From the IMG/VR virus record IMGVR_UViG_3300045988_079349: DNA of 62,911 nucleotides, one strand, 5' to 3'. This DNA comes from a virus. Under the pieces are notes generated by a model. That model searched no databases and was not told the DNA's origin. It saw only the letters and a program-made list of their open reading frames with translations. Shown one piece after another: positions 1,695 to 20,131 of this stretch. Within the stretch, counting starts at the first letter, position 1. Every line of letters starts with the position of its first letter. Position numbers and translations under genes: made by a program.

Positions 1695-1897
1695 ATAAAA
1701 TATACAATTTCAAATGCGGGAGGGCATACAACGAATCGTCATAATTTCTCACGGATGCGGGAAAATTTTAGGCAAGAAAATTGCCAGTCCGCAGTTGTTA
1801 TATTGTTTATTTTTTTAGAAAAAAGTTTAACAAATTTTAGGACAAAGCAGAAAAATTATGGTATAATAAAAGTGAAATATAGTAGAGAGGTGATAAT

Positions 1898-2041
1898 ATG
1901 AATTATTCGACTGTTTCTGTTAGATTAACAGAGGAAGAAAAAAAGACTTTAGAAGAGTTTGCGAAGGATAGAGATTTAACTATGTCGCAAGTAATTAGAA
2001 AAGCAGTAAAAGAATATATAGAAAACCATTCGAACGACTAA
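1898..2041 (+). CDS. ribbon-helix-helix (CopG/Arc-like) DNA-binding protein, 47 aa
   Basis: MNYSTVSVRLTEEEKKTLEEFAKDRDLTMSQVIRKAVKEYIENHSND; GAGAGGTG RBS; TGgTATAAT extended -10 about 35 nt upstream. Confidence 0.6.
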   Translation: MNYSTVSVRLTEEEKKTLEEFAKDRDLTMSQVIRKAVKEYIENHSND

Positions 2042-2057: not shown

Positions 2058-2276
2058 ATGACTAATAATTATAAGGTTTTTACTTTGAAGTTAGCTAGAA
2101 AGCTATGTGAGTTGGGATTTAAGGTTGTTGGAACAGCACCAAATGCTTAGAAACCTTGGTTAAATGTTTATCTTTTTGAAGATACTTAGGAATTAAGAGA
2201 AGCGATTGAGAAATATAAGGGACAAAGTTCGCTATTGGAGGATGATTGCCATGGCAGACAAAAGAAGAAGTCCTAA
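2058..2276 (+). CDS. small phage protein (DUF5659-like) read through two in-frame TAG codons
   Basis: AAGGAGA RBS then ATG. MTNNYKVFTLKLARKLCELGFKVVGTAPNA[TAG]KPWLNVYLFEDT[TAG]ELREAIEKYKGQSS...KKS then TAA. The family resemblance continues past both TAGs. Confidence 0.5.
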
Positions 2277-2427
2277 TTAGCGAACAGTAAGTCATATTCA
2301 TAAAGAGCCTTGTAATACTAATAATATATATGCTAGAATTAATAAGGATGCTTTATTTGCGGCGAGAAGAGAACTTAGTGATGGTGAGTTTTCTTTATGG
2401 ATATTTTTTGCTAGTTAGTCAGAGAAG

Positions 2428-2640
2428 TTGACAGATTATGATTTTGGCCCTACTATTATTGAGAGGGAGTTGGGTATAAAGAAAGCTAAATATACAAATG
2501 CAATAGAAGGATTGGTAGAAAAAGGGTATTTGATTCCTCTTGAGAAGAAGGGGTATTACGATTTTTACGAAGTTCCTAAAATTATTGACGAGGATAAATA
2601 TAATTATGTCGCTCCTAACGGAGAAAAATTTTCGTTTTAA
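2428..2640 (+). CDS. winged-helix DNA-binding protein (replication-initiator/RepA_N-like); N-terminus may extend upstream through TAG codons
   Basis: ORF track (TTG start). The upstream in-frame stretch KDALFAARRELSDGEFSLWIFFAS[TAG]SEKLTDYD... looks like the start of a Rep_N/wHTH domain but has no canonical start codon. Confidence 0.4.
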   Translation: MTDYDFGPTIIERELGIKKAKYTNAIEGLVEKGYLIPLEKKGYYDFYEVPKIIDEDKYNYVAPNGEKFSF

Positions 2641-2649
2641 TTTTCATGT

Positions 2650-2875
2650 ATTTCTGAGAATACCATGAATTTCATAGTATTGTGAGAAACCTATGAAATC
2701 ATGTATTTGTTGGAAAGCTATGAAAATTTCATAGTATTCTGACAATACTATGATTTTAATTGAAAGATTTATTTCATGGTATTCCAACAATACTATGACA
2801 TGGTTTTCTGACAATACCATGAAAGTAAATAAAAATCCATTTCATGGTATTCTGACAATACCATAAATATAACAT
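2650..2875. promoter_or_regulatory. array of at least four ~27-bp palindromic operator-like sites (TTCATGGTATTCTGACAATACCATGAA and variants)
   Basis: Inverted-repeat half-sites CATGGTATT/AATACCATG (variant CATAGTATT) recur at about 2655, 2715, 2775, 2800 and 2838, between the wHTH gene and the small gene at 2955. Confidence 0.55.
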
Positions 2876-2954
2876 ATATATAAGATAACAAAGAAAAGAT
2901 AACAGCGACTTTTTCATGTATTTGTGAGAAAGCGATGGATAGAGGAGAATAATC

Positions 2955-3104
2955 ATGGAAAATTTTCAAAAGTGGAAGGATATTCAAGGAAGTATAGATG
3001 GGACGATGGGAGCAAATGATTTAGAAAATCGAATTGAAAAGCTGGAAGAAGGTTTTAGAAAAATCGAATCAAAAATTAAAGGGAAAAGTCAAGAAGAAGA
3101 GTAA
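2955..3104 (+). CDS. small coiled-coil protein (~49 aa)
   Basis: AGGAGA RBS; MENFQKWKDIQGSIDGTMGANDLENRIEKLEEGFRKIESKIKGKSQEEE. Confidence 0.45.
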   Translation: MENFQKWKDIQGSIDGTMGANDLENRIEKLEEGFRKIESKIKGKSQEEE

Positions 3105-3390
3105 TGGGTAGGGTAAGAGAGATTAATAGAGGTAGAGGAAAAGGGATTATTGAATCTATATGAGGATTCGAGTTAGATTACAAGCGAAGCCATAAGAAAG
3201 TGGATAGACTATAGGGAGAATATAAGTAAAATTGGAGAAAATTAGAAGAATAGTAGAGAAAATTGGAGAAATAGTAGAGTTGGGTGCCGATCGGGTCTAG
3301 GTACAACCATCACAACACTCGTCAAAACGATCGTAAACCTAGGCTTCCGCGATTCTTCTACTTCTTTCCTCTTGTTTAATAGCAATAAAA

Positions 3391-3415
3391 AAAGAGAGGT
3401 ATCTCTACCTCTCTT
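3391..3415 (-). terminator. intrinsic terminator for gene 3416..3889
   Basis: Hairpin AGAGAGGTA-tct-CTACCTCTCT followed on the minus strand by TTTTTTT. Confidence 0.55.
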
Positions 3416-3889
3416 TTATCTAAGCCCTCTCAAGAACTTAGCTACCACATCTTCATCATTGTTGCTCTTGATGGAAACGGAGACCGATTCATTTCGCATC
3501 TCCTGAATCGCCTTCTCAATTATCTTATCAAGCTCTTCCTCTGTCGCTGCAAGTGCATCATTGATATTATTCATCCCGACAATTCGGGCAGAAATACGAG
3601 CAGTCTCAGTGATAGCCTCTGCATATTTATTGATAGTATCAGCATCCCACTCAGGGTGAGAAGGAGCATAAATAAGAACTGCAAGCTGTCCGATATGCTC
3701 TGCATCAAGATGCTCATCATCAACAGCATTTAGAAAGTCGCACTCAATTTCATCCAAAGCTTGCTGACGAGCCTTCCGAACCTGATTCTGCTTATTAAAG
3801 ACATTTAGAGCATCAGTAAACTCCTTAGCAATATCGTCGAGAGACGCACCGCCATCAAGAGCACATTTAATCATATTAGTATAATCCAT
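3416..3889 (-). CDS. hypothetical acidic protein (157 aa)
   Basis: ORF track; A/G-rich RBS; promoter immediately upstream. Confidence 0.55.
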   Translation of the reverse strand: MDYTNMIKCALDGGASLDDIAKEFTDALNVFNKQNQVRKARQQALDEIECDFLNAVDDEHLDAEHIGQLAVLIYAPSHPEWDADTINKYAEAITETARISARIVGMNNINDALAATEEELDKIIEKAIQEMRNESVSVSIKSNNDEDVVAKFLRGLR

Positions 3890-3902
3890 GGAATATATTC
3901 CT

Positions 3903-3960
3903 CTTTTCTTTCCTTTTATATTTATATTATATAATATTATTTTATAAATTGCAACCGATC
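3903..3960 (-). promoter_or_regulatory. sigma70-like promoter (TTGCAA-17-TATAAT) for gene 3416..3889
   Basis: Reverse complement reads TTGCAAtttataaaataatattaTATAAT. Confidence 0.5.
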
Positions 3961-4600
3961 GGTCCTAGCTTAAAGATCTTTTATTCTAAAATAACTTCTC
4001 TGATTGAGGCATCGACTAGAAAATTCTTAGCTAGAGAATAAGTCTTTTTAATTGTATCTATAAAAGTATAGAAAGGGTGAACATCAAGAAGATTTGCTGA
4101 AAATGAGGCAAATTTTGCTAATTTTTAAGTAATTTTATTAGAAAAATGTGCGTTTTTGCTAGATTTTTAGAGAATTTTCGCTATATTAAGAGAAAAACAA
4201 GAGGAAAAACCTGCGGACCGATCGGTTTACCTAGCTAAAAGTAGAATTTTCTAGCTATTTTTATTATAAAATCTCGTTATTCCGATCGGCGCCGCGAAAA
4301 AATCTCTCGCTGGTATTTGTTTTTCATAGCAACATCTTTGCTATTGTTAGCTGTATAGGGGATAATGTTAGTCTTATGAACACTTGACAATTTTAAATTT
4401 TTTTATTATAAAAAATGGACGAGAAAGCCGCTATTGCTGGACCGATCGGGATAAGATAGAAAACCGATCGGGTTATAATATAATTTTGGGAGATTCTAGA
4501 CTAAGTTGCGTTATGGCCAACTTGCTATGAAAATTTTGCGCTATGGTCCGATCGGGGAAATTCGGGCCGAGTCGCCCGCGACCGGCCCGCCCGCATATTG
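3950..4600. other. ~650-bp AT-rich noncoding region with seven CCGATCGG palindromes and TTTTGCTA-like iterons; candidate replication origin or regulatory hub
   Basis: CCGATCGG occurs at about 3297, 3955, 4217, 4283, 4441, 4465 and 4548. Repeats such as aattttgctaat, gtttttgctagat and aattttcgctata occur at roughly helical spacing. No ORF longer than 60 aa. Confidence 0.35.
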
Positions 4601-4634
4601 GGATAAAAAAACCACCCCATTTCTGGGGTGGTTC
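4600..4634 (-). terminator. intrinsic terminator
   Basis: Minus strand reads CCACCCCAGAAATGGGGTGG followed by TTTTTTT. Confidence 0.6.
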
Positions 4635-4637
4635 TTG

Positions 4638-4990
4638 TTAGCTTAGAATAACCGGGTATGCTTTGCGGATAATGACTGTTACCATGCGCGGGGGCGTGTT
4701 ACAGAGAAAACGGTCATTCCTGATAAAATGTCCAATTCCCATATTCTGCCACAAAGTCCGGTTCAAGTCCTCATACCGCAAAGTATTATACTTAGATAGC
4801 CGGATATACCAATCATAGGTAAAAGCACTATCCGCAGGCATGGTATAATCTCTTGCCCGTTTATAGTTTCTCGTATGCTCGGCGGCTCGTCTTGCAAGGT
4901 CGTTTGTCGTGCCAATCTTGAGAATATAGCGTCCCTTTACGTCTACATAATGTCCGACGTATAGAAACTCCTTCTCCCGTGTCTGCGTGC
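4638..4990 (-). CDS. GIY-YIG / T5orf172-like domain protein; start codon unclear (possible pseudogene or non-canonical initiation)
   Basis: ...EKEFLYVGHYVDVKGRYILKIGTTNDLARRAAEHTRNY... in frame with the track ORF 4638..4841. No ATG, GTG or TTG lies in frame upstream of the motif before a TAA at about 5045. Confidence 0.4.
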
Positions 4991-5044
4991 TAACTATGAG
5001 ATACCTCTTTTCCGGTAGGGCCGGGGTAGGCCAGCCCTACCCCG

Positions 5045-5362
5045 TTATTTCTTAGGCTTCCGCTTTTGGACGAGCGTTAGCTCGAAACTGTCCCCACCGA
5101 TAGAAAACGCAATTTGGCGTTCCTTGTTTGTTATAGCAAGGTCAACAATCGAAAATTGACTGTTTTTCTCCAAAAACTCCGCCAACTCTGCGATTATGCC
5201 GCCTTTAGTTGCGTTTGGTTTGCGTTGCCGTGGTGTAAACTTGTAGGCGGTAGGGGTTTTCCTTGTGCCAGCGTGGGCGAATTTCTGCGCGATTTTCGCT
5301 TTATCGGGCGATAAATCGTATTGCGTTTTTTCGCCAGCTTCCACCGCCTTGTCATAGGCCAA
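5045..5362 (-). CDS. hypothetical basic protein (105 aa)
   Basis: ORF track. Confidence 0.5.
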   Translation of the reverse strand: MAYDKAVEAGEKTQYDLSPDKAKIAQKFAHAGTRKTPTAYKFTPRQRKPNATKGGIIAELAEFLEKNSQFSIVDLAITNKERQIAFSIGGDSFELTLVQKRKPKK

Positions 5363-5499
5363 TAGCTCCGCCTCCTCCTCTGGTGTCAGTTGGAGAGGCT
5401 TATATCTCGATAACCTCTCGGCGTCAGTGATACGGCTCGATATAGTCTCACCCCCTAAGATAGAGTAGGGCGGGGATTTTCGCCCCGCCCTATACGGGG

Positions 5500-5901
5500 T
5501 TACGCCATCTTAAAGAGAGACTTGCCCTTCTTCTCCTGACAGGTCACACGGCCGTCCAGCTTGAGCATCCGCACAAGGGCGGCGGCCTTCTGAGTGGAGA
5601 AAGCGGCCAGAGAGGGCACAGACTTGAAAATGTCGGTACAGGTCACGCCGTCGGTGTCATCGGGCAGGCCGGCCAGATACTCCATAATCTGCTCCTTCAG
5701 GCTCTCGTTCTCCTGCTGGGTCGGGGTCAGCTTCTTGTCACCGCCGGAGCTATTCTTCTTCCGCAACAGCTCCAGCTCATGGTCAATGACGGTCATGGCA
5801 ATCTCCATGGTTGTGCCATGCTTCACCTCCTCACCAGCCAAGAGGGCCTTAATGTCCTCGAAACGCTGGGCCTTAGTGATACGGATTTTCTTCTCGCTCA
5901 T
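5500..5901 (-). CDS. hypothetical protein (133 aa)
   Basis: ORF track; transcribed from the tandem promoter array upstream. Confidence 0.5.
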   Translation of the reverse strand: MSEKKIRITKAQRFEDIKALLAGEEVKHGTTMEIAMTVIDHELELLRKKNSSGGDKKLTPTQQENESLKEQIMEYLAGLPDDTDGVTCTDIFKSVPSLAAFSTQKAAALVRMLKLDGRVTCQEKKGKSLFKMA

Positions 5902-5934
5902 GGTAATACATCCTTTCTGGTTTTTAGGACTGTC

Positions 5935-6260
5935 CTTGTCCTTTGATTATATTGTACCACACTATCGGGAGTTTGTCAAGAGGTTTTTCAAACTTTTTTC
6001 AAGAGCTTTTGCCCTTTACTTGTTTGCCCTCTCTCGTTCCCCTTATAGTGTAACACACTTTGGAGAGTTTGTCAAGCCCTTTTTTATTCACTTTTCAAGG
6101 TTCCTTGCCTTGTTTTCTGTACTTATTATAGCACACTCACAAGGGCTTGTCAAGAGGTTTTTTGAAAGATTTTTGAAAGTTCGCTGTCGCTGTCTACCGT
6201 TCGTCTCTCTCACTTTCTGTACTTATTGTACCACACCACAAAGCGGATTTCAATTGTGAG
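5935..6260 (-). promoter_or_regulatory. tandem array of three (plus one degenerate) sigma70 promoters with extended -10, carried on ~85-bp direct repeats
   Basis: Minus-strand reads: TTGACAaactcccgatagtgtgGTACAAT; TTGACAaactctccaaagtgtgtTACACT; TTGACAagcccttgtgagtgtgcTATAAT. The plus-strand ORF 5594..6259 is an artefact of this repeat. Confidence 0.6.
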
Positions 6261-6424
6261 GTCCTCCAAAAGAACGTGATTTTGGGATAGGGTTTTTGTG
6301 CAAAATGTTGCACAAAACGGAATCAAATTTTTTGTGCAACATTTACAAGGAAAAAATCGGGTCGCGCCGCCCATGCGCGACCCGCCAAAATATAAAACAA
6401 AAAAAGAATGCCGAAGCCCTCTTT

Positions 6425-6606
6425 TTATCCGAAAAGGCAGTTATCTAAAAAGTCGAACAGGTGTTCATCCTCGGCGGGGATGGATACCAGTATATCCCCG
6501 TTTTCATCGGGTTCATCATGGCTCCATCCCATACGCTTGATGATTTCAAGCGCCGTGAAAACGGCATCGGGACAAAGGGAAGAAGTATATACAATTCTTG
6601 TTTGCA
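6425..6606 (-). CDS. hypothetical small protein (~60 aa, MQTRIVYTSSLCPDAVF...)
   Basis: AGAAAGAGGG RBS then ATG; shorter than the track ORF 6425..6709. Confidence 0.4.
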
Positions 6607-6608
6607 TA

Positions 6609-6758
6609 TTTAACCCTCTTTCTTTGAGTAGAACTGGTCGGCATAAAACTGCATTTCTTTCTGCGTTACCTTGGAAAGCATGGCCTTGATGGTAAATACA
6701 TCTGGGCACGTCCGCTCAAGTAGGAAGCGAATAGCCTTATTCTTTAATCCCTGAAACA
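6609..6758 (-). CDS. hypothetical small protein (~49 aa, MFQGLKNKAIRFLLERT...)
   Basis: GAAGGAGAAATAAGAA RBS then ATG; its stop lies 2 nt before the next start. Confidence 0.4.
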
Positions 6759-6789
6759 TTTCTTATTTCTCCTTCTACCGGGCGGGGCA

Positions 6790-7614
6790 TTAAGCCCCGA
6801 CCCGGATTGTCGGAATCTGCCGCAAACTTGCGGAAAGCTGACGCTGAAAATCTGTCATGGGCGGAAACTCCCGCTTGTTCTCATACAGGGCCTTTCTCAT
6901 GGGCTTATGCTGGCGCATACAGTACCACATGATTTCCGCCTCAATCAGAACATCTTCCAGTCCCGTGTGGCTTTCCTCAAAATCAGTGTTGCCGGAGATA
7001 AACCGCCACACGATTTCCGCAGTCTTGCGGGGAACGCCATTAGCCTGCACATACCCGTGTTCCTCACAGAATTTCTTATAGGTGGGCATCTGGCAAATGA
7101 CATCTTGCGTCATTTTCATAATGTCCCAAATTTCCACGCTGTCAAATGGGAACCAATACCGGAATTTGGAACAAGTGACCCAACGCTGAGTGACCCGAAG
7201 GGCGTTATCATCGAAGCGGGCATTATATGCGGCGACCTCCTTAATGCCGTACCGCTCGATAGTGTCCAGCATGGCCTGACGGATTTCATAGGTAGTAGCC
7301 ATCTTGCGACTGCCAGCCCGCAATTCCTCTACATACCGGGGGATTTTCCAGTTATAGTAGGCCGTCCGCATGAGATCCCGTTCATCGTTGAAAATGTCCC
7401 GATTTACAAAACTTGCGGTTTCGTAAATATTGCCCTTGGTGTCTACGACCGCCCAGCCGCAATCATACACCAAAACATTTGACATATCCATACGGACACG
7501 CTCCGGGGTAATGATTTCCCCATCCTCCCCGATTTCAGCGGGGACAGTCTCGGTTAATGTGTTGGCGGTTTCTGTATCGACCACCAGCACATAATGTCGG
7601 CGTTTATCAATCAT
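6790..7614 (-). CDS. DEDDh-family 3'-5' exonuclease (DnaQ-like)
   Basis: Exo I YVLVVDTETAN, Exo II AYNARFDDNAL, Exo III HTGLEDVLIEAEIMWY; 274 aa with no TAG. Confidence 0.8.
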   Translation of the reverse strand: MIDKRRHYVLVVDTETANTLTETVPAEIGEDGEIITPERVRMDMSNVLVYDCGWAVVDTKGNIYETASFVNRDIFNDERDLMRTAYYNWKIPRYVEELRAGSRKMATTYEIRQAMLDTIERYGIKEVAAYNARFDDNALRVTQRWVTCSKFRYWFPFDSVEIWDIMKMTQDVICQMPTYKKFCEEHGYVQANGVPRKTAEIVWRFISGNTDFEESHTGLEDVLIEAEIMWYCMRQHKPMRKALYENKREFPPMTDFQRQLSASLRQIPTIRVGA

Positions 7615-7639
7615 AATCTATCAAGTCCTTTCTCCTCTT

Positions 7640-7870
7640 GATGGTATTATTATAGCATATTTTATGCTTGGTGTCAAGAGGAATTTTATATTTTTTTTCT
7701 CCGTTGAAAAAGGCGTCGCGATAACCTCTCTCACAAAAGGGACTCTTTACCCTACTCTGGAGAACTTTTTCCTTTCCTCCTGACATGATAATAATACCAT
7801 AATTTTGGGATAACTTCAAGATGGGATTTTGCACAAGATTTTCACTTGAAAATTGTGCAACATCACAACA
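7640..7870 (-). promoter_or_regulatory. proximal promoter (TTGACA-17-TATAAT) plus upstream operator/promoter module
   Basis: Minus reads TTGCACAA-N16-TTGTGCAA then TTGAAG-17-TGgTATTAT. This module is almost identical to the one at 9195-9290. Confidence 0.55.
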
Positions 7871-7876
7871 GAAAAA

Positions 7877-7955
7877 AATGCGGCCCGCGGCGTTCAAGCG
7901 CGGGCCGCTCAAGTTATGAAAAAAATAAAAGCGGGGTTTTCCCCGCTTTTATTTA
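7877..7955. terminator. GC-rich palindrome (GCGGCCCGCGgcgttcaaGCGCGGGCCGC) followed by a bidirectional terminator hairpin (AAAAGCGGGGttttCCCCGCTTTT)
   Basis: Perfect stems; the second hairpin is flanked by A-runs and T-runs. Confidence 0.5.
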
Positions 7956-8144
7956 ATCCCTATGAATTACGGTCTTGAAAATGCTCCTAAGGATGCAAAT
8001 GATAATCCAGATGCCGAAAGTGATTTTCCACGAGAAGGTGAGGGCAAACGCCCAACAGATGAGCCAGATCAGCAGGGCCGTGCCGAAGAAAGAAACCACA
8101 CAGGTGACAAGAACTATAAGGGCGGCAACGAGAAAAGCAAACAT
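7953..8144 (-). CDS. small two-TM membrane protein (63 aa)
   Basis: ORF track; AGGAAGGAGA RBS; hydrophobic throughout. Confidence 0.5.
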   Translation of the reverse strand: MFAFLVAALIVLVTCVVSFFGTALLIWLICWAFALTFSWKITFGIWIIICILRSIFKTVIHRD

Positions 8145-8153
8145 TTTTGAAAC

Positions 8154-8324
8154 ATCTCCTTCCTATCGGGAACGCCTTAAATGGCGTTCCCGACTTTAAA
8201 GCACTTGGCCGAAGGCGACCAAAGAGAACCGGCCTTGCGCTTGGCGTCAGAACGGGCGCGGTCAACATCCTTGCCCACACCCACGAACACATGGCCCGCC
8301 GCAGTCTTAAAGTAGAAATTCATC
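8154..8324 (-). CDS. hypothetical small protein (~56 aa, MMNFYFKTAAGHVFVGVGKDVDRARSDAKRKAGS...)
   Basis: AAAGGAAG RBS then ATGATG. A perfect hairpin GGGAACGCCttaaatGGCGTTCCC spans its stop. Preferred over the track ORF 7987..8292, which has no RBS. Confidence 0.35.
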
Positions 8325-8459
8325 ATAGTAAAGCTTCCTTTCTTTTATGAGGGTTATCCCCTCTTGATGATTAAATTATACCACAATGCGGTGAGATTGT
8401 CAAGAACTTTTTTACGTATTTTCCAGATATGGGGCGGGGATTTCACCCGCCCCTTTTAT

Positions 8460-8924
8460 TTAGTCCAGATTGTTGATATATTCAATAATGTTTGTAGTTT
8501 GGGGGTCTACGGTATCCCCTAAATGCCAGCCGTTTCTAATTTTGCCGTTATCATCAAAGAGGATAAACGGCGGTTCATAGAAACTACGGAATACACATTT
8601 AGCTTTAGTTGTTCCATACGCCACACAATGGCATTTATGGGCCGGAAATTTATGCCTTGCAAGCCATTCCTTTTTGGCGGCTGTGACTGCTTTCTTATAT
8701 TCAGGGGGGCTTTCAGGGGGCAACCATGTAATAACTCGAACCTCCCACCCGTTACTAATTGCGTTTAGAAGCGCATTTCGGAGGGCGTTCATATCCCACA
8801 TGGGGGCGGCGTCTCGGAATGGGCTGGGGTCTCCATCGCGGAGTTTTTCAAGCCAGTTGGGGACTGCGTATAGATCTGCAATTGTCCCGTCCATATCAAA
8901 GCAGAGCATTTTTTTAGTTATCAT
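8460..8924 (-). CDS. HAD-superfamily 5'(3')-deoxyribonucleotidase-like protein
   Basis: N-terminal HAD motif I LCFDMDGTIADLY; NT5C-like size and layout. Confidence 0.6.
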   Translation of the reverse strand: MITKKMLCFDMDGTIADLYAVPNWLEKLRDGDPSPFRDAAPMWDMNALRNALLNAISNGWEVRVITWLPPESPPEYKKAVTAAKKEWLARHKFPAHKCHCVAYGTTKAKCVFRSFYEPPFILFDDNGKIRNGWHLGDTVDPQTTNIIEYINNLD

Positions 8925-8954
8925 ATATATATAACCTCCTTTTGTTTTATTATA

Positions 8955-9179
8955 CTACCTGTTGCCTATCTTGTCAACAAGTTTTTCAAAGAAATTTTTA
9001 TGCCGATATACCTTATAAGGCATTGACGTATAATCCACATAAATTAGAGGGTCGCGCAAAAGAATAGCTTGCATATAGACCCCATAATTCTCTGTGGTGG
9101 TAGTACCACCAAATTGGCGGCGGTAGATTTCAGCCACAGTTAAACACTCATTAGGCCGAATAAACTTTGAAGGTTTCAT
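8955..9179 (-). CDS. hypothetical protein (74 aa)
   Basis: ORF track; AAGGAGGG RBS. Confidence 0.5.
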   Translation of the reverse strand: MKPSKFIRPNECLTVAEIYRRQFGGTTTTENYGVYMQAILLRDPLIYVDYTSMPYKVYRHKNFFEKLVDKIGNR

Positions 9180-9194
9180 TTAGTGTCCCTCCTT

Positions 9195-9330
9195 CTTTCT
9201 GTACTAATAATACCATAATTTAAGGATAATTGCAAGATGACATTTTGCACAAGATTTCAAGTCAAAAATTGTGCAGAACTTACAAACAAGAAAACTCGGC
9301 GCGCTGTGAGCGTCAGCGCGCCGTCGAAAT
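9195..9330 (-). promoter_or_regulatory. operator/promoter module (second copy) plus GC-rich palindrome
   Basis: Minus reads TTCTGCACAA-N16-TTGTGCAA then TTGCAA-17-TGgTATTAT. Upstream palindrome CGGCGCGCTGtgagcgtCAGCGCGCCG. Confidence 0.5.
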
Positions 9331-9362
9331 TTTGGTATAAAAAAAGAGGGCCGAAGCCCTCT

Positions 9363-9821
9363 TTAATTTTCTGCAAATTGAGCTAGAAATTGCGCAGAAA
9401 GTCGAACCATATCATGCGCTGATTCTTTATCGTTTTTATAGCAAATAAAGCCGATTACCTCACCTTCTGCAATAATAGGAGTAACAAACAACGATTTTCC
9501 CTTCCATTCAGTACCCCAATTACGAATATTGAACCATTCATCCGGGGTCTTTGACATTCCGAAGGGGCGAGGGCCGCACAAAAGACTTGAATTATCAAAA
9601 ACCGACGCTAAAATGCCGTTAATGCTTAAAACTTTTTGAATATGTGCGGCCTGAGGAGCAAAAGAAGATAGTAGGGAATATTTCTTGAAAACCACCCCGC
9701 CATCTTCAATAAAGATTTCTAGCGGGTCGCCTTCCCGAATATTCATATTCCGACGAATTTCCTTAGGAATTACTACCCGGCCGAGATCATCAATGCGCCG
9801 CACAATGCCAGTTGCTTTCAT
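9363..9821 (-). CDS. SpoVT/AbrB-family transcriptional regulator (AbrB swapped-hairpin N-domain plus GAF-like C-domain)
   Basis: MKATGIVRRIDDLGRVVIPKEIRRNMNIREGDPLEIF matches AbrB/SpoVT. The likely start is this ATG rather than the track's TTG at 9842. Terminator AGAGGGCcgaaGCCCTCT plus T-run at 9343-9362. Confidence 0.7.
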   Translation of the reverse strand: MKATGIVRRIDDLGRVVIPKEIRRNMNIREGDPLEIFIEDGGVVFKKYSLLSSFAPQAAHIQKVLSINGILASVFDNSSLLCGPRPFGMSKTPDEWFNIRNWGTEWKGKSLFVTPIIAEGEVIGFICYKNDKESAHDMVRLSAQFLAQFAEN

Positions 9822-9872
9822 TTTTTTTATTAGAGAGGGCAAGGCTATTGCTTGCCCTCTCTACCTCCTTCC

Positions 9873-10268
9873 TTAAAACTCCTTGCGCAGTTCCTCAAGC
9901 ATGGCTGTTAAGGTGTTCATATCTCCACCCATTTCTAATTTGACGCACATGAGCCGGGTCTGCTCGTTAATCCATGTGTTAATCTCTGCGATTTCATCAT
10001 CCATTTTTTCCTTGGCCGGAGTATAAATGCCGCAAGTGCAGGTCTGGATGACATTCTCGCAATATCTGGAAGTCTTATAGCCCTTAGCCTGCATTTCCGC
10101 CTGGATAGTATCGCCCAGCTCATTGGCCGACTTGACGATAGCCTCCTTAAAAGCCTCCAGCGCGTCGAACTCTGGCTGATACCTCTCCCGGATAGCCGCC
10201 TCCTTACAGGCAGAAATCTTGCGAACCTCGTCACGAACATATTCTTCAATTCTCTTAGTAACACGCAT
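9873..10268 (-). CDS. hypothetical protein (131 aa)
   Basis: ORF track. Confidence 0.5.
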   Translation of the reverse strand: MRVTKRIEEYVRDEVRKISACKEAAIRERYQPEFDALEAFKEAIVKSANELGDTIQAEMQAKGYKTSRYCENVIQTCTCGIYTPAKEKMDDEIAEINTWINEQTRLMCVKLEMGGDMNTLTAMLEELRKEF

Positions 10269-10339
10269 TTCTAAAAACTCCCTTTCTGTTTTAATTTGAG
10301 AGGTTTTACTCGTTTCCCCTCTTTACATTTAATAGTATA

Positions 10340-10460
10340 GCAGATTTCGGGAGAAGTGTCAATCGTCAAAATGCACAACATTTGCAAACATATTTTGTTG
10401 AAACTGCTGATCCAGAAAAAATCGGACCGCGCCCATCCTGCGCGGTCCGCCCGCGAAAAA
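10340..10460 (-). promoter_or_regulatory. operator/promoter module with GC-rich palindrome
   Basis: Minus reads CAGTTTCAACAAaatATG, then TTTGCAAATGTTGTGCA, then TTGACA-17-TATACT. Upstream palindrome GGACCGCGCccatcctGCGCGGTCC. Confidence 0.45.
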
Positions 10461-10495
10461 AGACAAAAAGAAATGCCCCGAAAGGGGCAAATCTT

Positions 10496-10852
10496 TTAAA
10501 AATTTCCCTCTACATTGTCGCTACAAACCTCCCACCACATATCTTCATCCAGCAGGCCCAGCTCTTCAAGCCACCTGCAAAGTTCCTCTGCCTTTTTGGA
10601 AAGTGAAACCAGATGAACCATGCAATCCTGATCCCGGAAAACAAATATCTTGTCCTTTTCTTCGGTTTCCACTCCCTTCGGGACGGGTTCATTCCCATAG
10701 GCTTCGCCGCATTTCTGCATAAGCAGGCCCCGGTCAGTACCTACAATCTCCAGAAAATCGCCCTCGTTAATTCCGAGAGACTGGCGCACCTCCTTGGGGA
10801 TAACCACGCGTCCCAGATCATCCATCCTCCGAGTGATGCCGATAACTTTCAT
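10496..10852 (-). CDS. AbrB/MazE-family DNA-binding protein (118 aa)
   Basis: MKVIGITRRMDDLGRVVIPKEVRQSLGINEGDFLEIV. Confidence 0.7.
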   Translation of the reverse strand: MKVIGITRRMDDLGRVVIPKEVRQSLGINEGDFLEIVGTDRGLLMQKCGEAYGNEPVPKGVETEEKDKIFVFRDQDCMVHLVSLSKKAEELCRWLEELGLLDEDMWWEVCSDNVEGNF

Positions 10853-10914
10853 CTTTATACTTCCTTTCTAAATTTTATGGTAGGCGCCTAGTTGCCCAGG
10901 CGCCTTTATCCAGT

Positions 10915-11235
10915 TTACAGCATAGACAGAAGGGCGTCAATGTCAACCTCACTGGATACGCGGTCGGCCTCCTCGTCAAAGACTGCCTTCAAAATGTCGG
11001 CCGCATCATCTGGAGTACAGGCATCCTCAAGCAAGAACTTCCCCAGAGATTGAACCAAAGCTAAATCAGCCGAATGGCGGTCTACCGTACGCATCGCCAT
11101 ATGAAGGGCAATCAGGCCATCCTTATCCTCCTGGGTCATCTTAGGCAGAGTAGTCATAATATGCTTCCTTTCTGGTTTATAGAGTTTTCCTTCTCTTGAT
11201 AGTGTTATTATATCATAAAGGGCTAGGTTTGTCAA
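10915..11235 (-). CDS. hypothetical protein (106 aa)
   Basis: ORF track; promoter TTGACAaacctagccctttatgatataaTAACAC-like upstream. Confidence 0.5.
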   Translation of the reverse strand: MTNLALYDIITLSREGKLYKPERKHIMTTLPKMTQEDKDGLIALHMAMRTVDRHSADLALVQSLGKFLLEDACTPDDAADILKAVFDEEADRVSSEVDIDALLSML

Positions 11236-11241
11236 TACCCT

Positions 11242-11385
11242 TTACATCGGAGTATTTATAATATATCCGAACATTGCGATTTCAGCCGTGAAGAATATAG
11301 CAAGCCAGAAATGCTCTTTTACCAGAGCCACTACATACTGGATCGTTAGGCAAATGGCAAGAATGATTATGATAAAAGTTGTCAT
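11242..11385 (-). CDS. small membrane peptide (~47 aa, MTTFIIIILAICLTIQYVVALVKEHFWLAIFF...)
   Basis: ATAGGAGAAACAAAT RBS then ATG; below the 60-aa track cutoff. Confidence 0.35.
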   Translation of the reverse strand: MTTFIIIILAICLTIQYVVALVKEHFWLAIFFTAEIAMFGYIINTPM

Positions 11386-11412
11386 ATTTGTTTCTCCTAT
11401 GGTGGAGAGGGA

Positions 11413-11652
11413 TTACACCCTCTCCACCTCGATAATTTCCATGTCGAAATCTTCCCAGCAGGCCCCAAGGAGCATATCATGCCGCAGGTCGTTTTCGCTT
11501 TCGTAGTCCATATCCTCCAGAATATCCTGCCAGTTATCGGGATTATATTGCTTTTTCAGCCAGTCCCAGCCCGCGCCACGAGCTAACCGCAGATCATCAG
11601 ATACACAGATAATCTTCTCACGATTATCAGCCATAACCACATAGCTTTTCAT
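11413..11652 (-). CDS. hypothetical acidic protein (79 aa)
   Basis: ORF track. Confidence 0.5.
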   Translation of the reverse strand: MKSYVVMADNREKIICVSDDLRLARGAGWDWLKKQYNPDNWQDILEDMDYESENDLRHDMLLGACWEDFDMEIIEVERV

Positions 11653-11898
11653 TTTCTTTTACTCCCTTTCTTGAGGGCTTTTGTTCTCCCCTCTTGATGG
11701 TCTAAGTATACCAGAACGGGAGGGGAAAGTCAAGCGATTTTGGGAAATTTCCTCTCGTCAATTTCACCAATAAACTGATCCAAAAATTGTGCAAATTGCC
11801 TCTTGACAAAAAATTCCGGCCGCTGCGCTCATGCGCGGCCGGCTGAACAATATATTTTGAATTGGAAAAGAAATTCCTCCCATTTTGGGAGGAAAATC

Positions 11899-12096
11899 TC
11901 AATCTACATATTCTCGATTTAAAACTTTTACAACCTCTTCAGGTTTACGTCGAGACCGGAAAAGAGCATCTTCATAGGAATAACCAGAGATATTGTCGGT
12001 CGAGCCATTTTCAAGCAAAATCTCAAATTCATACATATCTCTCAACTTCCTTTCTTTTGATAACTTAATTTTAACATAAGAATTTCGGGAAGTCAA
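11899..12096 (-). CDS. hypothetical protein (65 aa)
   Basis: ORF track only. Confidence 0.35.
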   Translation of the reverse strand: MTSRNSYVKIKLSKERKLRDMYEFEILLENGSTDNISGYSYEDALFRSRRKPEEVVKVLNREYVD

Positions 12097-12329
12097 TCGG
12101 TACTTTCAACAATTTTCATTCCATTTGCTTGTATAATTCGCATAGCTTCTTCAAGAGAAGTATTGTCAACGGAGCCACAGTCGATACAAATATATTTTCT
12201 GCCATCCTTTACCATAGTAGTGAAATAATATTCTTGACCAGAAACAAGGCCCATCTACTCTCGTAGTCTTACGGGAATCATGATGCGCCCACTTGAATCC
12301 AATTTCCTTGAGAAAGTAGTTTCTTGCAT
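12093..12329 (-). CDS. AbrB/MazE-like swapped-hairpin protein containing one in-frame TAG (78 aa)
   Basis: MQETTFSRKLDSSGRIMIPVRLRE[TAG]MGLVSGQEYYFTTMVKDGRKYICIDCGSVDNTSLEEAMRIIQANGMKIVESTD. The AbrB-domain alignment (RKVDELGRVVIPIELRRTLGI...) runs straight across the TAG. Confidence 0.55.
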
Positions 12330-12581
12330 TTTGATAAATAAATTCTAGTGACCTAGGTTCGTGCGAAAAACGACTCCATCACGGGAATCGCCGATTTGTA
12401 ACAATCGGAGGGAATAATTACCACTCGCAAGGCATTTTCTGGCAGAACTGAGCCATAGGACAATTCTTACAAGAATCCTAGTTCAAACAGAACTCCAGAA
12501 TGACCGCAAGAGCTTTCAGCACTTCTAAGGTTATTAGAAAACTCCTTTCTTTGTTTTTCTATATATATTATAGAATATTTT

Positions 12582-12616
12582 TTTAAAAAAAGCAAGGGCT
12601 GACTTATGCCAGCCCC
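12582..12616 (-). terminator. intrinsic terminator for gene 12710..12961
   Basis: Minus reads GGGCTGGCATAAGTCAGCCC followed by TTGCTTTTTTT. Confidence 0.5.
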
Positions 12617-12709
12617 AGCCTCTGCAACCAGACAAGGTGATATTTCCCCAATCTTACCAAAACTGTTCCATATCCCTTATTAGTCCAAACGGTGGAACCA
12701 ATAGGATAT

Positions 12710-12961
12710 TCACGCGGAAGTCTCTCGATAGTCATTGATAATCCCCTTTTCTGTAAAGAATCCGACAAGATGTTCTGCTGCACTGGACTTATGCGGAGTT
12801 ATCAACAACCACGCACCGCGAAGATTATCAATAGTCGATAAAGACCAGTCCGCGCCCATCTGACTAATTAAGCACTCGAAACTTGCTCGATCCTCAAGAG
12901 AGTTAAACGAAACTACATATTTTCCCATGCGGAAATCGACCTCCATAGAATTTTTTATCAT
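12710..12961 (-). CDS. hypothetical protein (83 aa)
   Basis: ORF track. Confidence 0.45.
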   Translation of the reverse strand: MIKNSMEVDFRMGKYVVSFNSLEDRASFECLISQMGADWSLSTIDNLRGAWLLITPHKSSAAEHLVGFFTEKGIINDYRETSA

Positions 12962-13000
12962 GGGGAGTGGAAGTCATAGACCTCCACTCCCGCAGGTTTC

Positions 13001-13240
13001 TTATGCGTTAATGTAGATATTAACGCCACCTTCTTCTCTCATTTCAATCTCAGTCACCTGCTTCTTGAACAGGGCGCTGAGGTCATCGCCATAAAAGTCA
13101 CCGCCGAGCTGGAGCTTCCATTCCTTGTCAAACCGGAAATGTGCGCCGGTATTGCTGTCGATTACCTGAATAGCCGCATCCTCTTCCAGACAGAAAGAGT
13201 ATTGCCGGAACAAAATCACAACGTCTTTGAAGCACACCAT
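13001..13240 (-). CDS. hypothetical protein (79 aa)
   Basis: ORF track; promoter TTGACA-17-TGgTATATT upstream at about 13290-13330. Confidence 0.5.
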   Translation of the reverse strand: MVCFKDVVILFRQYSFCLEEDAAIQVIDSNTGAHFRFDKEWKLQLGGDFYGDDLSALFKKQVTEIEMREEGGVNIYINA

Positions 13241-13339
13241 TTCTTTTACTTCCTTTCAAATTCTTTTTGTGGTCTGTCTCTCTGGACAAGTATAATATAC
13301 CATACCCACAAAGGAATGTCAAGCGATTTCGGGAGAAAA

Positions 13340-13441
13340 ATTCTCGGCAGATTGCACAAACTTTTGGCCATATAATTGTTGAAACTGCCGAACAAACAAA
13401 AATTCGGGCCGCGGCGCACGCTGGCGGCCCGGCGAAAAGTC
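13340..13441 (-). promoter_or_regulatory. operator/promoter module with GC-rich palindrome
   Basis: Minus reads CAGTTTCAACAAttATATG, then TTTGTGCAA, then TTGACA-17-TGgTATATT. Palindrome CGGGCCGCGGcgcacgCTGGCGGCCCG. Confidence 0.45.
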
Positions 13442-13640
13442 AATATGGGAAAGTGCACAAAAATATCCGGCAATCTTTGTGCAGATTACCGGATAGAATA
13501 TTAAAACATCACAGTAAAGAAGTTATACTCACTATGCTGTGGATTTGGATAGCTGTTATCTGCTACTATGTCAGCCCAGCTCAAAGCAATCCAGAGAAGG
13601 AGAGCGGCGCAAAGGCCGCCTCCTATATACCGTAGCACTC

Positions 13641-14027
13641 TCATACCGCAGGCTCCTTCCCCAGAAGGTCATACCGTCCAGGGATTTCGGCATTAAGCCT
13701 ATCCCATTCTTTGGCAGTTACCCTGTCATACTCATTATAATAGTTATCCCGAATGATATAAAGCTGTTCTGTGGTGTCCTTATCCAGAGCGGCCTTATAC
13801 TCGTCAAGAGAGGCAGGACGAGTGTGAAGCTTGCTGTTGATATACCGTGCATTGATAAAGGCCCAATGTGGCATGACGGCCTTAGAGATAGCATTAAAAG
13901 CGTCTAAGTCAAGGATGATACCATCATCCACAGCGGCCGCCTTCACATTCATGGAGTAACGGAGAACACGCACGAACTCAGGCTTATTAAAGGTGGGATT
14001 GGTGTAATACTTGATGAAGTTAGACAT
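13641..14027 (-). CDS. hypothetical protein (128 aa)
   Basis: ORF track. Confidence 0.5.
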   Translation of the reverse strand: MSNFIKYYTNPTFNKPEFVRVLRYSMNVKAAAVDDGIILDLDAFNAISKAVMPHWAFINARYINSKLHTRPASLDEYKAALDKDTTEQLYIIRDNYYNEYDRVTAKEWDRLNAEIPGRYDLLGKEPAV

Positions 14028-14082
14028 ATCTTTTATCCTTTCTCCCCGTATAGCCGTTAGGTCAGCTTCTTGTGGTATATGG

Positions 14083-14232
14083 TTACTTGATAGCTTCGCC
14101 GGTAGACAGGTCTACAATCCAATAGTCAGGATTGACAAGCTCATGGTCTACTCTCCATCTTGCGTGTGCAAAAGTAGACGGCTCATAGTATCGCATTTTG
14201 TCACCCACTAAAACCTGCAACTGATACCTCAT
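14083..14232 (-). CDS. hypothetical small protein (~49 aa, MRYQLQVLVGDKMRYYEPSTFAHARW...)
   Basis: AGAAAGAAGG RBS then an internal ATG of the track ORF 14083..14346. Confidence 0.4.
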   Translation of the reverse strand: MRYQLQVLVGDKMRYYEPSTFAHARWRVDHELVNPDYWIVDLSTGEAIK

Positions 14233-14303
14233 AATACAGCCTTCTTTCTTTTGATTATTATAACCCTGCCTTGCCTTGGGTTTTGCAAGGCAGGGTTTAT
14301 AAA

Positions 14304-14681: not shown

Positions 14682-14849
14682 CTTTTTTACTCCCTTTTTT
14701 TTTGTGGTGTGGTTCTCTTGTGTTCTGCCTGTATTGTATCAAGTCTTTTAAGACTTGTCAATACTTTTTTTTGAAAAATTTTTAATTTTCAAGGTTCAGG
14801 GGTTTTGCCCTTGTCCTAACTGGACAAGTCCAGTTTACACCCATTGACC

Positions 14850-18179: not shown

Positions 18180-18209
18180 GATGGCGAAGCCTCCTATCTT
18201 ATTTCTATA

Positions 18210-18250: not shown

Positions 18251-18294
18251 TATTTATTTGTAAAGTTTTGTCAAATATAATAGGAGATGATAGA

Positions 18295-20126: not shown

Positions 20127-20131
20127 TTATA

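What the first reader, a model, noticed from the sequence alone, without database searches (positions are those of the whole stretch)
2650..2875. Array of 27-bp perfect palindromes TTCATGGTATTCTGACAATACCATGAA
At least four or five copies with minor variants lie between a wHTH/Rep-like gene and a small coiled-coil gene. This is a classic multi-operator or iteron arrangement for a dimeric HTH or RHH protein, such as the RHH gene at 1898-2041.
Basis: seen in the sequence. Interest (0 to 1): 0.5.

Follow-up and report, generated by a model that had tools for sequence, protein, structure and literature searches.

The report
Probable phage replication origin repeats
A real cluster of eight 27-bp two-fold-symmetric repeats sits just after a small DNA-binding gene in an uncultured human-gut phage, and it is most likely that phage's replication origin, built like the classic phage lambda origin and therefore ordinary in kind.

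Summary
The array is real but was described imprecisely. There are eight units at 2643-2939, not four or five. Each has imperfect 11-bp inverted arms around an asymmetric 5-bp centre. The quoted 27-mer does not occur exactly in the window, and there are no other copies in 62.9 kb.

The window is part of a ~147-kb human-gut phage that reads TAG as glutamine. The upstream gene (2251-2640) is intact only under that code.

Relatives of this winged-helix (wHTH) protein at 31-49% identity all carry dyad-symmetric repeat arrays. The repeat sequences differ, but each array starts right after the wHTH-coding part. In some relatives the array lies inside a longer gene, as ori-lambda lies inside gene O. 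Arrays occur where no ribbon-helix-helix (RHH) gene is present. Of 62 family members, 42 match PHROG replication-initiator families.

An easily melted AT-rich tract with two AAGATAACA motifs lies between units 7 and 8. The arms show no hairpin covariation.

Best reading (confidence ~0.6): an iteron-type origin bound by dimers of the upstream wHTH protein, with the RHH acting as a CopG-like operon repressor. Rivals are an operator array, a partition centromere, a packaging site, and RNA or ssDNA hairpins. It is a new member of a known kind, of modest interest.

The parts
1839..1867 (+). Sigma-70-type promoter of the module (AGGACA, 17 nt, TG-extended TATAAT)
   Evidence: 10 of 12 matches, TG present. 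The GGACAA box is invariant in five diverged relatives.
1898..2041 (+). 47-aa ribbon-helix-helix (RHH) protein, CopG/Arc type; inferred autorepressor of the operon
   Evidence: Pfam DUF6290 2e-11 and RHH_1 1e-8. PHROG repressor families. The L007 orthologue carries a weak RepB-RCR_reg hit.
2058..2276 (+). 72-aa DUF5659 protein with two in-frame TAG codons; recurrent partner gene of the wHTH
   Evidence: Pfam DUF5659 1e-6. The same gene precedes the wHTH in L007, L008, L010 and L011.
2251..2640 (+). 129-aa winged-helix protein with two in-frame TAG = Gln; proposed origin-binding initiator
   Evidence: Translation. 604 family representatives. 42 of 62 members match phrog_270 'replication initiation protein'. 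AF2 model with pLDDT 84 shows a winged helix. BFVD fold hits include a RepA-like initiator.
2643..2669 (+). Unit 1: TTCATGTATTT CTGAG AATACCATGAA
2671..2697 (+). Unit 2: TTCATAGTATT GTGAG AAACCTATGAA
2698..2724 (+). Unit 3: ATCATGTATTT GTTGG AAAGCTATGAA; its centre is inverted relative to unit 5
   Evidence: (inverted repeat I8)
2728..2754 (+). Unit 4: TTCATAGTATT CTGAC AATACTATGAT
2773..2799 (+). Unit 5: TTCATGGTATT CCAAC AATACTATGAC; overlaps unit 6 by 3 bp
2797..2823 (+). Unit 6: GACATGGTTTT CTGAC AATACCATGAA
   Evidence: Units 6-7 plus their spacer are 93% identical to the L002 clade, against about 80% for the genes.
2841..2867 (+). Unit 7: TTCATGGTATT CTGAC AATACCATAAA; the copy closest to the consensus
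2868..2912 (.). AT-rich, easily melted tract with two AAGATAACA motifs (2882-2890 and 2896-2904); proposed unwinding element
   Evidence: The least stable 40-mer of the region (2863-2902) is in the lowest 0.15% of the window for duplex stability. Motif positions. AGATAACA recurs right after the arrays of L008/L009, L010 and L032.
2913..2939 (+). Unit 8: TTCATGTATTT GTGAG AAAGCGATGGA; lies 15 bp upstream of the small ORF
2955..3104 (+). 49-aa helical ORF of unknown role; same transcription unit
   Evidence: The C-terminal DLE(N/K)RIEKLEEGFR(K/E)IE is kept in the L002 and L004 clades. No significant family match.
3390..3417 (.). Two-way hairpin terminator that closes the + strand module
   Evidence: (inverted repeat I14). 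No terminator-like site lies between the promoter and this point.

Best explanation
The array is the protein-binding part of a lambda-type (iteron) replication origin of a ~147-kb TAG-recoded human-gut phage. Its binder is the 129-aa winged-helix protein encoded immediately upstream.

Proposed mechanism, with the status of each step:
1. The promoter at 1839-1867 drives one transcript, RHH - DUF5659 - wHTH - array - small ORF, ending at the 3390-3417 hairpin. The anatomy is shown. The RHH acting as a CopG-like autorepressor is inferred.
2. Once TAG is decoded as Gln, full-length wHTH is made and binds each 27-bp dyad as a dimer. It reads the conserved outer TTCAT(G/A) and (C/T)ATGAA, whose centres lie about two helical turns apart, and the inner TT/AA. 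That the sites are dsDNA protein sites rather than hairpins is supported. The identity of the binder rests on comparison with relatives. Dimer binding is inferred from the dyad symmetry.
3. Eight occupied sites over 297 bp form an O-some-like complex that stresses the 45-bp AT-rich tract between units 7 and 8. The tract melts and a helicase is loaded (inferred).
4. The protein lacks the C-terminal domain of longer relatives. Recruitment would therefore have to use another partner, possibly through the conserved C-terminal G-E-K-F-S-F peptide or the DUF5659 protein (speculative).
For: Reality and uniqueness of the array.

Conservation within the clade. Fourteen distinct versions from 24 loci keep the order, the spacing and the inverted pair formed by units 3 and 5. 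Units 6-7 and the spacer between them are 93% identical between sub-clades whose genes are about 80% identical.

Co-variation across the protein family. Relatives at 31-49% identity carry dyad arrays of different sequence that begin where the wHTH-coding part ends:
- L007: TTCATGTACCTCTGAGAGGATTATGAT type.
- L008: TTCATAGGTACAAAATGACCCTATGAG type.
- L010: GGGTCCAAAATGAACCC type.
- L011: four units of 22-23 bp inside the gene.
- L013: GTGTGCC...GCACAC units inside the gene.
- L032: GGCTTTAAGCC type.
- L033: ACCAAAAATTGGT type, followed by a ~60-bp almost pure A/T tract.

Recognition-helix residues differ between these sub-families and are similar where the units are the same, as in the window and L002.

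An in-gene array between an N-terminal DNA-binding domain and a C-terminal domain is the ori-lambda arrangement. There, 19-bp imperfect inverted-repeat iterons bound by O dimers, followed by an AT-rich tract, lie in the middle of gene O, and extra iterons add residues to O (PMC7466680).

Homology. 42 of 62 family members match phrog_270 'replication initiation protein', 26 match phrog_428, 24 match phrog_186 (DnaD-like loader) and 21 match phrog_678 (O-like). Only 2 match transcription regulators. BFVD fold hits include a 'RepA-like replication initiator' (E 9e-4), a plasmid replication initiation protein and RepL.

The AT-rich tract is among the least stable 0.15% of 40-mers in the window.

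No hairpin selection. Arm pairing (74%) is no higher than in shuffles (78%), and only one pair changes on both sides.
Against: - The window's own protein matches initiator families only weakly (phrog_270 E 0.04, HTH_36 E 0.004, below the cut-off). The homology argument runs through relatives.
- PHROG function names are themselves mostly inferred.
- The protein is only a DNA-binding domain, with no helicase-recruiting domain.
- No helicase, primase or polymerase gene lies within the 62.9-kb window or the 2.7 kb upstream of it.
- The PDB fold search gives only generic winged-helix regulators (CodY, Zur, MarR, TubR), none significant.
- GC skew in the window follows gene orientation and says nothing about an origin here.
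- Nothing has been tested experimentally, and no cultured relative exists.
Confidence: 0.6

Rival explanations
1. Operator array. The wHTH (or the RHH) is a transcription regulator, and the eight dyads are operators. They would control read-through into, or initiation of, the downstream small ORF and the conserved 3281-3350 element.
For: The dyad units suit a dimeric repressor. Unit 8 lies 15 bp upstream of the small ORF. The array sits inside a transcription unit with no terminator before 3390. PDB fold neighbours are transcription regulators. Initiators of this general type often also autoregulate.
Against: Eight to nine sites over 300 bp is atypical for operators. In L011 and L013 the array lies inside the coding sequence between two protein domains. 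The downstream gene is not conserved across relatives, whereas the array is. The family matches replication initiators, not regulators, by 42 to 2. No convincing promoter overlaps the units.
Confidence: 0.15
2. Partition centromere. The array is a parS/parC/tubC-like site bound by the wHTH (TubR-like) or the RHH (ParR/ParG-like), for segregation of a plasmid-like prophage.
For: Centromeres of type II and III systems are arrays of short repeats next to a small wHTH or RHH adaptor gene (established knowledge). TubR appears among weak fold hits (E 0.42). The RHH has a weak hit to a 'partition protein ATPase' PHROG (E 0.028).
Against: No ParA, ParM or TubZ-type NTPase gene lies in or beside the module, here or in L007, L008, L010 or L011. 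In-gene arrays followed by AT-rich tracts are not centromere features. The fold and family hits quoted in favour are not significant.
Confidence: 0.08
3. Packaging recognition site (pac or cos-B-like) bound by a small winged-helix terminase-type subunit.
For: Packaging sites can be repeat clusters bound by wHTH small terminase subunits (established knowledge). Two independent assemblies end inside the array (L005; L029). In L011 the wHTH gene lies about 1.6 kb upstream of the large terminase gene.
Against: In this window the large-terminase-like gene is at 21307-23052, 18 kb away. Complete-length contigs place the locus at different internal positions, which suggests circular or permuted assemblies. 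Contig breaks are explained by repeat copy-number variation. The family does not match terminase small subunits.
Confidence: 0.04
4. The palindromes act as hairpins in the transcript or in single-stranded DNA, for example as RNA processing or attenuation signals or a single-strand origin.
For: The region is transcribed and folds far better than shuffles (RNA z = -7.8, DNA z = -7.1).
Against: The low folding energy follows trivially from repeated dyads. Across 28 distinct units, arm complementarity (74%) is not above shuffled controls (78%), and there is essentially no compensatory change. The inner arm positions are often non-complementary (units 1, 2, 3 and 8). No Rfam family matches.
Confidence: 0.03

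Closest known systems
ori-lambda with the O initiator of lambdoid phages
   Same: Several (4-6 there, 8-9 here) imperfect inverted-repeat binding sites for a dimeric initiator. They sit immediately downstream of the DNA segment encoding the initiator's N-terminal DNA-binding domain and are followed by an AT-rich tract. Copy number varies between relatives, and in-gene copies add residues to the protein (PMC7466680; compare L007, L008, L010, L011 and L013). The site is transcribed from an upstream promoter.
   Different: Units are 27 bp rather than 19 bp. In this phage the gene stops before the array, so the protein is only the DNA-binding domain (129 aa), with no P-binding C-terminal domain. 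The AT-rich tract is flanked by a further unit on its far side. Sequence similarity to O-like PHROG families is seen only through relatives. The host is probably a Firmicute (inferred from composition and relatives, not tested).
Replisome-organizer or DnaD-like initiators of Firmicute phages with origins in or next to their own gene (SPP1 G38P with oriL; lactococcal phages)
   Same: A phage-encoded origin-binding protein whose repeats lie within or beside its own gene, next to an AT-rich region (own knowledge; SPP1 papers PMC5737612 and PMC6316719 were listed but not read in detail). 24 of 62 family members match phrog_186 'DnaD-like helicase loader'.
   Different: No adjacent helicase or loader genes here. 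The repeats are dyads rather than simple direct repeats. The protein is much shorter.
CopG-Rep operons with the origin downstream of the rep operon (pMV158 copG-repB; pRN1 orf56/orf904)
   Same: A small RHH repressor gene is the first gene of an operon that ends with the replication protein. A cis-acting element essential for replication lies just downstream of the operon (pRN1: PMC4234260). The L007 RHH carries a weak RepB-RCR_reg hit.
   Different: Those Rep proteins are a nicking enzyme (pMV158) or a primase-helicase (pRN1), not a bare winged helix. Their cis elements are a nick site or a single long stem-loop, not an iteron array.
Iteron plasmids and phage-plasmids (P1 RepA with incC/incA, F RepE, R6K pi)
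   Same: Arrays of initiator-binding repeats flank the initiator gene, including arrays downstream of it. The initiator is of the winged-helix type (own knowledge).
   Different: Those iterons are 17-22-bp direct repeats bound by monomers of a two-winged-helix Rep. Here there is a single winged helix and the units are dyad-symmetric. No Rep_3 or RepA family match was found.

Membership tests
Lambda-O-type iteron origin (phage theta origin with a cis-encoded initiator) | Four or more repeated, dyad-symmetric initiator-binding sites clustered in a few hundred bp | tested here: met
   Eight units in 297 bp. The skeleton gives 12 hits against 1.35 expected, with all eight clean ones here.
Lambda-O-type iteron origin (phage theta origin with a cis-encoded initiator) | Repeats lie within, or directly after, the DNA encoding the initiator's N-terminal DNA-binding domain | tested here: met
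   The array starts 3 bp after the wHTH stop codon. Arrays are in-frame inside the gene tail in L007, L008 and L010, and mid-gene in L011 and L013.
Lambda-O-type iteron origin (phage theta origin with a cis-encoded initiator) | An adjacent AT-rich, easily unwound tract | tested here: met
   2863-2902 is in the least stable 0.15% of 40-mers. L033 has a ~60-bp almost pure A/T tract after its array.
Lambda-O-type iteron origin (phage theta origin with a cis-encoded initiator) | The adjacent protein is homologous to known replication initiators | tested here: inconclusive
   The window protein itself scores only E 0.04 against phrog_270. However, 42 of 62 family members match it, with a best E of 1.5e-11, and BFVD fold hits include RepA-like initiators. 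PDB and NCBIfam give nothing specific.
Lambda-O-type iteron origin (phage theta origin with a cis-encoded initiator) | The initiator carries a C-terminal domain that recruits the helicase loader | tested here: not met
   The protein ends at residue 129, after the winged helix plus a short tail. Longer relatives (200-380 aa) do have extra C-terminal sequence.
Lambda-O-type iteron origin (phage theta origin with a cis-encoded initiator) | Specific binding of the protein to the repeats, and origin activity of the fragment | not testable with these tools
   Needs EMSA or footprinting and a replication assay. The only proxy available is repeat-protein co-variation.
Plasmid-type iteron replicon (Rep_3 / RepA / pi / RepE) | A two-winged-helix Rep protein that binds 17-22-bp direct repeats as a monomer | tested here: not met
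   The model shows a single winged helix. There is no Rep_3 or RepA Pfam match. The units are dyads.
Partition centromere (ParR/parC, TubR/tubC, ParG-type) | An adjacent gene for a partition NTPase (ParA, ParM or TubZ) | tested here: not met
   No such gene lies among the neighbours here or in relatives.
CopG/Arc-type RHH operator | Sites co-occur with the RHH gene and overlap the regulated promoter | tested here: not met
   Arrays are present in L011, L013 and L033, where the upstream genes are not RHH-like. The array does not overlap the operon promoter at 1839-1867.
CRISPR-like array or structured-RNA repeat family | Uniform repeats separated by unique spacers of similar length, or hairpins kept by compensatory change; a match to a known RNA family | tested here: not met
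   Gaps between units run from -3 to +45 bp. There is no covariation and no Rfam match.

The most novel reading that the evidence does not exclude
The initiator has been reduced to a bare origin-binding winged helix with a conserved C-terminal docking peptide (G-E/K-K/E-F-E/S-F). Because it and the DUF5659 gene carry in-frame TAG codons, full-length initiator can be made only after the phage has switched the cell to TAG = Gln decoding. Firing of this origin would then be licensed by the genetic-code switch. The AGATAACA motifs, which are conserved across sub-families with unrelated iterons, would be the landing site of a shared and still unidentified factor.
Probability: 0.12. Interest if true: 0.6.

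Novelty: new member of a known kind. Interest (0 to 1): 0.3.

Why it matters
If correct, this locates the replication origin and its binding protein in a widespread, uncultured ~147-kb stop-codon-recoded phage of the human gut. It also defines a large, unannotated family of short origin-binding winged-helix proteins (604 cluster representatives), each with its own recognisable repeat array. That gives a simple rule for annotating origins in metagenomic phage genomes: look for a dyad array right after the wHTH-coding segment, followed by an AT-rich tract with GATAACA motifs. The same module is a candidate cassette for building replicons, or replication-interference ('decoy origin') tools, for gut Firmicutes. 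In kind, it remains a conventional iteron origin.

Tried and rejected
- DNA and protein searches of annotated phage and plasmid collections found nothing. The isolate-genome scan found no relative. There is therefore no annotated or cultured anchor.
- Rfam found nothing, both at gathering thresholds for the whole window and at permissive E-values for 2600-3450.
- A PDB sequence-profile search gave only chance-level winged-helix matches. Foldseek against the PDB gave generic regulators, none significant. NCBIfam was uninformative.
- The hairpin reading was tested by pair counting and rejected. The strong folding z-scores are a by-product of repeated dyads.
- The 62-member alignment was too diverse to seed a locus scan. 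The 7-member alignment recovered only the close clade in IMG/VR.
- Reading AAGATAACA as a DnaA box was considered and dropped. Only TTATC of TTATCCACA is shared (by eye).
- GC skew follows gene orientation and cannot locate an origin within a partial genome.
- A CRISPR-like reading was rejected on spacing.

Full report
**What the window is.** Under the standard code the window has few long ORFs. Treating TAG as sense nearly triples the residues in ORFs of at least 80 aa. It also produces long + strand structural genes, for example a 2932-aa ORF with 103 in-frame TAGs. TAG is glutamine. The invariant Gln of the family motif A-S-Q-S is TAG in the window, CAA in L002 and CAG in L007, and database copies of the protein carry Q at both TAG positions. 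Related contigs come from human-gut metagenomes. The longest are 143-148 kb and carry the locus at different internal positions. The window is therefore about 40% of a ~147-kb TAG-recoded gut phage. No tRNA gene lies in the window.

**Check of the observation.** There are eight units of 27 bp, starting at 2643, 2671, 2698, 2728, 2773, 2797, 2841 and 2913. The conserved skeleton is TTCAT-N4-TT-N5-AA-N4-ATGAA. With up to 2 mismatches it gives 12 hits against 1.35 expected; eight are the array and the other four are scattered 2-mismatch hits. The best copy has one mismatch. The units are also not perfect palindromes. They have 11-bp imperfect inverted arms around a 5-bp asymmetric centre. Six units have [C/G]TGA[C/G] at the centre, which gives most units a common polarity. 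Unit 3 (GTTGG) and unit 5 (CCAAC) are mutually inverted. Start-to-start spacings are 28, 27, 30, 45, 24, 44 and 72 bp, and units 5 and 6 overlap by 3 bp.

**Anatomy of the surroundings.** A strong promoter (AGGACA, 17 nt, TG-extended TATAAT) lies at 1839-1867. Its GGACAA box is invariant in five diverged relatives. It precedes, in order:
- a 47-aa CopG/Arc-type RHH protein, 1898-2041;
- a 72-aa DUF5659 protein, 2058-2276, with two TAGs;
- the 129-aa winged-helix (wHTH) protein, 2251-2640, with two TAGs;
- units 1-7;
- a 45-bp AT-rich tract, 2868-2912, with two AAGATAACA motifs 14 bp apart;
- unit 8;
- a 49-aa ORF, 2955-3104;
- a C-poor purine-rich stretch, a 70-nt conserved element, and a two-way terminator at 3390-3417.

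The whole + strand module is an island between - strand genes. L007 shows the same flanking arrangement, and L008 has - strand genes upstream.

**Hairpins or protein sites.** The region folds much better than shuffles as RNA or DNA. That follows automatically from repeated dyads. Across 28 distinct units of this clade, 74% of arm cells pair, which is not above the shuffled mean of 78%. Only one pair shows changes on both sides. Conservation is concentrated in the outer TTCAT/ATGAA and the inner TT/AA, while the inner arm positions are often non-complementary. This is the pattern of double-stranded binding sites for a two-fold symmetric protein. It is not the pattern of selected hairpins.

**Conservation within the clade.** Fourteen distinct versions of the array from 24 loci keep the order, the spacings and the inverted pair of units 3 and 5. 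The clade whose wHTH is 81-83% identical has a ninth unit that overlaps the stop codon. Some contigs have lost units (L019, L021), and two assemblies end inside the array (L005, L029). Copy number therefore varies in nature. Units 6-7 and the spacer between them are 93% identical between the two sub-clades, against 79-83% for the three genes.

**Co-variation across the protein family.** An exhaustive search found 604 cluster representatives sharing the ~110-residue N-terminal domain, in proteins of 100-380 aa. I examined eight relatives at 31-49% identity.
- L007, L008 and L010 keep the RHH-DUF5659-wHTH operon. Each has a dyad array of different sequence. The array begins inside the 3' tail of the gene, giving repetitive peptide tails, and continues beyond it.
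- L011 has four dyad units of 22-23 bp in the middle of a 237-aa protein.
- L013 has GTGTGCC...GCACAC units in the linker of a 289-aa protein that sits next to an integrase in a bacterial chromosome.
- L032 and L033 have arrays directly after the gene. In L033 the array is followed by a ~60-bp almost pure A/T tract.
- L012 shows a single 22-nt-arm inverted repeat instead of an array.

The recognition helix (residues 78-91 of the AF2 model, which has pLDDT 84) differs between sub-families with different units. It is similar where the units are the same. Arrays occur where the upstream gene is not an RHH (L011, L013, L033). The array therefore tracks the winged-helix protein, not the RHH.

**What the protein is.** By itself it matches HTH_36 and initiator PHROGs only weakly. 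Of 62 family members scanned, 42 match phrog_270 (replication initiation protein), 26 match phrog_428, 24 match phrog_186 (DnaD-like loader) and 21 match phrog_678 (O-like). Only two match regulator families. Foldseek against viral models returns HTH proteins, a RepA-like initiator (E 9e-4), a plasmid replication initiation protein, RepL and a replisome organizer. The PDB returns only generic winged-helix regulators, none significant.

**Interpretation.** The arrangement is that of ori-lambda. There, 19-bp imperfect inverted-repeat iterons are bound by O dimers, followed by an AT-rich tract, and located in the middle of gene O, and extra iterons lengthen the protein (PMC7466680). Here the arrangement is dyad sites immediately after the initiator's DNA-binding-domain coding segment, sometimes in-gene, followed by an AT-rich tract. 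The tract 2863-2902 is among the least stable 0.15% of 40-mers in the window.

I therefore read the array as the iteron part of a replication origin, bound by dimers of the upstream wHTH. The RHH would then be a CopG-like operon repressor, by analogy with copG-repB and pRN1 orf56/orf904 (PMC4234260). The array, its conservation and its co-variation with the protein are shown. Binding, dimerisation, unwinding and helicase recruitment are inferred.

The main weaknesses are these:
- The protein lacks any recruiting domain.
- No replisome genes lie nearby.
- The initiator homology is indirect.
- Nothing is cultured.

**Rivals.**
- An operator array (0.15) fits the dyads and the position of unit 8. 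It does not fit in-gene arrays or the family homology.
- A partition centromere (0.08) lacks any NTPase partner.
- A packaging site (0.04) is 18 kb from the terminase-like gene. The contig breaks that might suggest it are explained by repeat heterogeneity.
- Functional hairpins (0.03) are contradicted.

**Novelty.** This is a conventional kind of element, an iteron origin next to its initiator gene. It sits in a new setting and a previously unannotated protein family. Three details are unusual: the initiator is cut down to its DNA-binding domain with a conserved C-terminal GEKFSF-type peptide; the AGATAACA motifs recur after unrelated iterons in L008/L009, L010 and L032; and the initiator gene contains TAG codons, which ties its full-length synthesis to the recoded state. 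None of these was tested further.

Noticed in passing
whole window; e.g. 35436-44234 (+), 33295-34731 (+): TAG is used as a sense codon. With TAG as sense, residues in ORFs of at least 80 aa rise from 9,331 to 26,425. One 2932-aa ORF has 103 in-frame TAGs. TAG aligns with CAA/CAG (Gln) in relatives, including an invariant family Gln. No suppressor tRNA, or any tRNA, lies in the window.
   Followed up: partly
about 4000-16500, - strand: A block with 41-46% GC, against 29-40% elsewhere. Its - strand ORFs are almost free of in-frame TAG. These may be genes readable in the standard code, such as early genes. The same adjacency is seen in independent assemblies (L001, L005), so it is not a chimera.
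   Followed up: partly
3287, 3955, 4218, 4282, 4442, 4464, 4548 (mostly in the non-coding stretch 3890-4640): The palindrome CCGATCGG occurs 7 times, all within 1.3 kb, against 0.16 expected. Several copies are followed by CCTAGCT(A/T)AAAG. The copy at 3955 abuts a - strand TTGCAA-17-TATAAT promoter of gene 3416-3889. The copies at 4442 and 4464 bracket a + strand TATAAT. L008 has a similar AAGATCTTTTAAGCTGG motif next to GCGGCCGC instead. This looks like an operator or promoter set for a different regulator.
   Followed up: partly
3281-3350: A 70-nt element (GGTGCCGATCGGGTCTAGGTAC...CGATCGTAAACCTAGGCTTCCGCGATT) is 96% identical between sub-clades. Its flanks are 35-57% identical and the genes about 80%. 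Its 5' part is also present in L007. No Rfam match was found. Function is unknown. It may belong to the origin module or to the CCGATCGG set.
   Followed up: partly
3105-3280: A stretch with 4% C and 73% purines on the + strand. It contains short tandem repeats (AAAATTGGAGAAA twice) that are expanded in L005 (GAAGAATAGTA repeats) and poorly conserved (35% identity to L002).
   Followed up: no
2882-2890 and 2896-2904; L010 988-1026; L032 785-792; L008 4591-4598: AAGATAACA/AGATAACA motifs lie just after the repeat arrays of sub-families whose iterons are unrelated. Variants are GAATACA (three copies) in L007 and, in L011 and L013, motifs lying inside the coding region (L011 encodes N-I-T-D-N-T there). 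The binder is unknown. It is not a convincing DnaA box.
   Followed up: partly
2620-2640 (C-terminus of the wHTH) and relatives P0006-P0009: All short family members end in G-(E/K)-(K/E)-F-(E/S)-F after a variable, often repeat-encoded tail. This may be a docking peptide.
   Followed up: no
57954-62656, - strand: A diversity-generating retroelement. The reverse transcriptase is at 58616-59833 (phrog_1423, E 7e-82). The template repeat is at 60142-60243 and the variable repeat at 60865-60966, in the 3' end of the 601-aa gene 60851-62656. Every difference falls at a template adenine.
   Followed up: yes
9363-9842, 10496-10852, 12093-12404 (all -): Three small proteins with AbrB/SpoVT-like N-termini (RVVIPKEIRR-type motifs), judged by eye from the translations.
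   Followed up: no
19041-20126 (+); 17063-17893 (-); L001 3-1025 (-): A sigma-factor-like protein with a C-terminal zinc-finger/HNH-like tail (phrog_5767, E 4e-40). A FolD-like gene with 7 TAGs (by eye). An adenylosuccinate-synthetase-like gene just upstream of the window in L001 (by eye).
   Followed up: no
array region in L005, L019, L021, L029: Copy-number variation. L021 lacks units 2-3 and L019 lacks unit 5. Contigs IMGVR_UViG_3300045988_075249 and OZFF01000006 end inside the array, and L029 shows collapsed identical tandem units there.
   Followed up: partly
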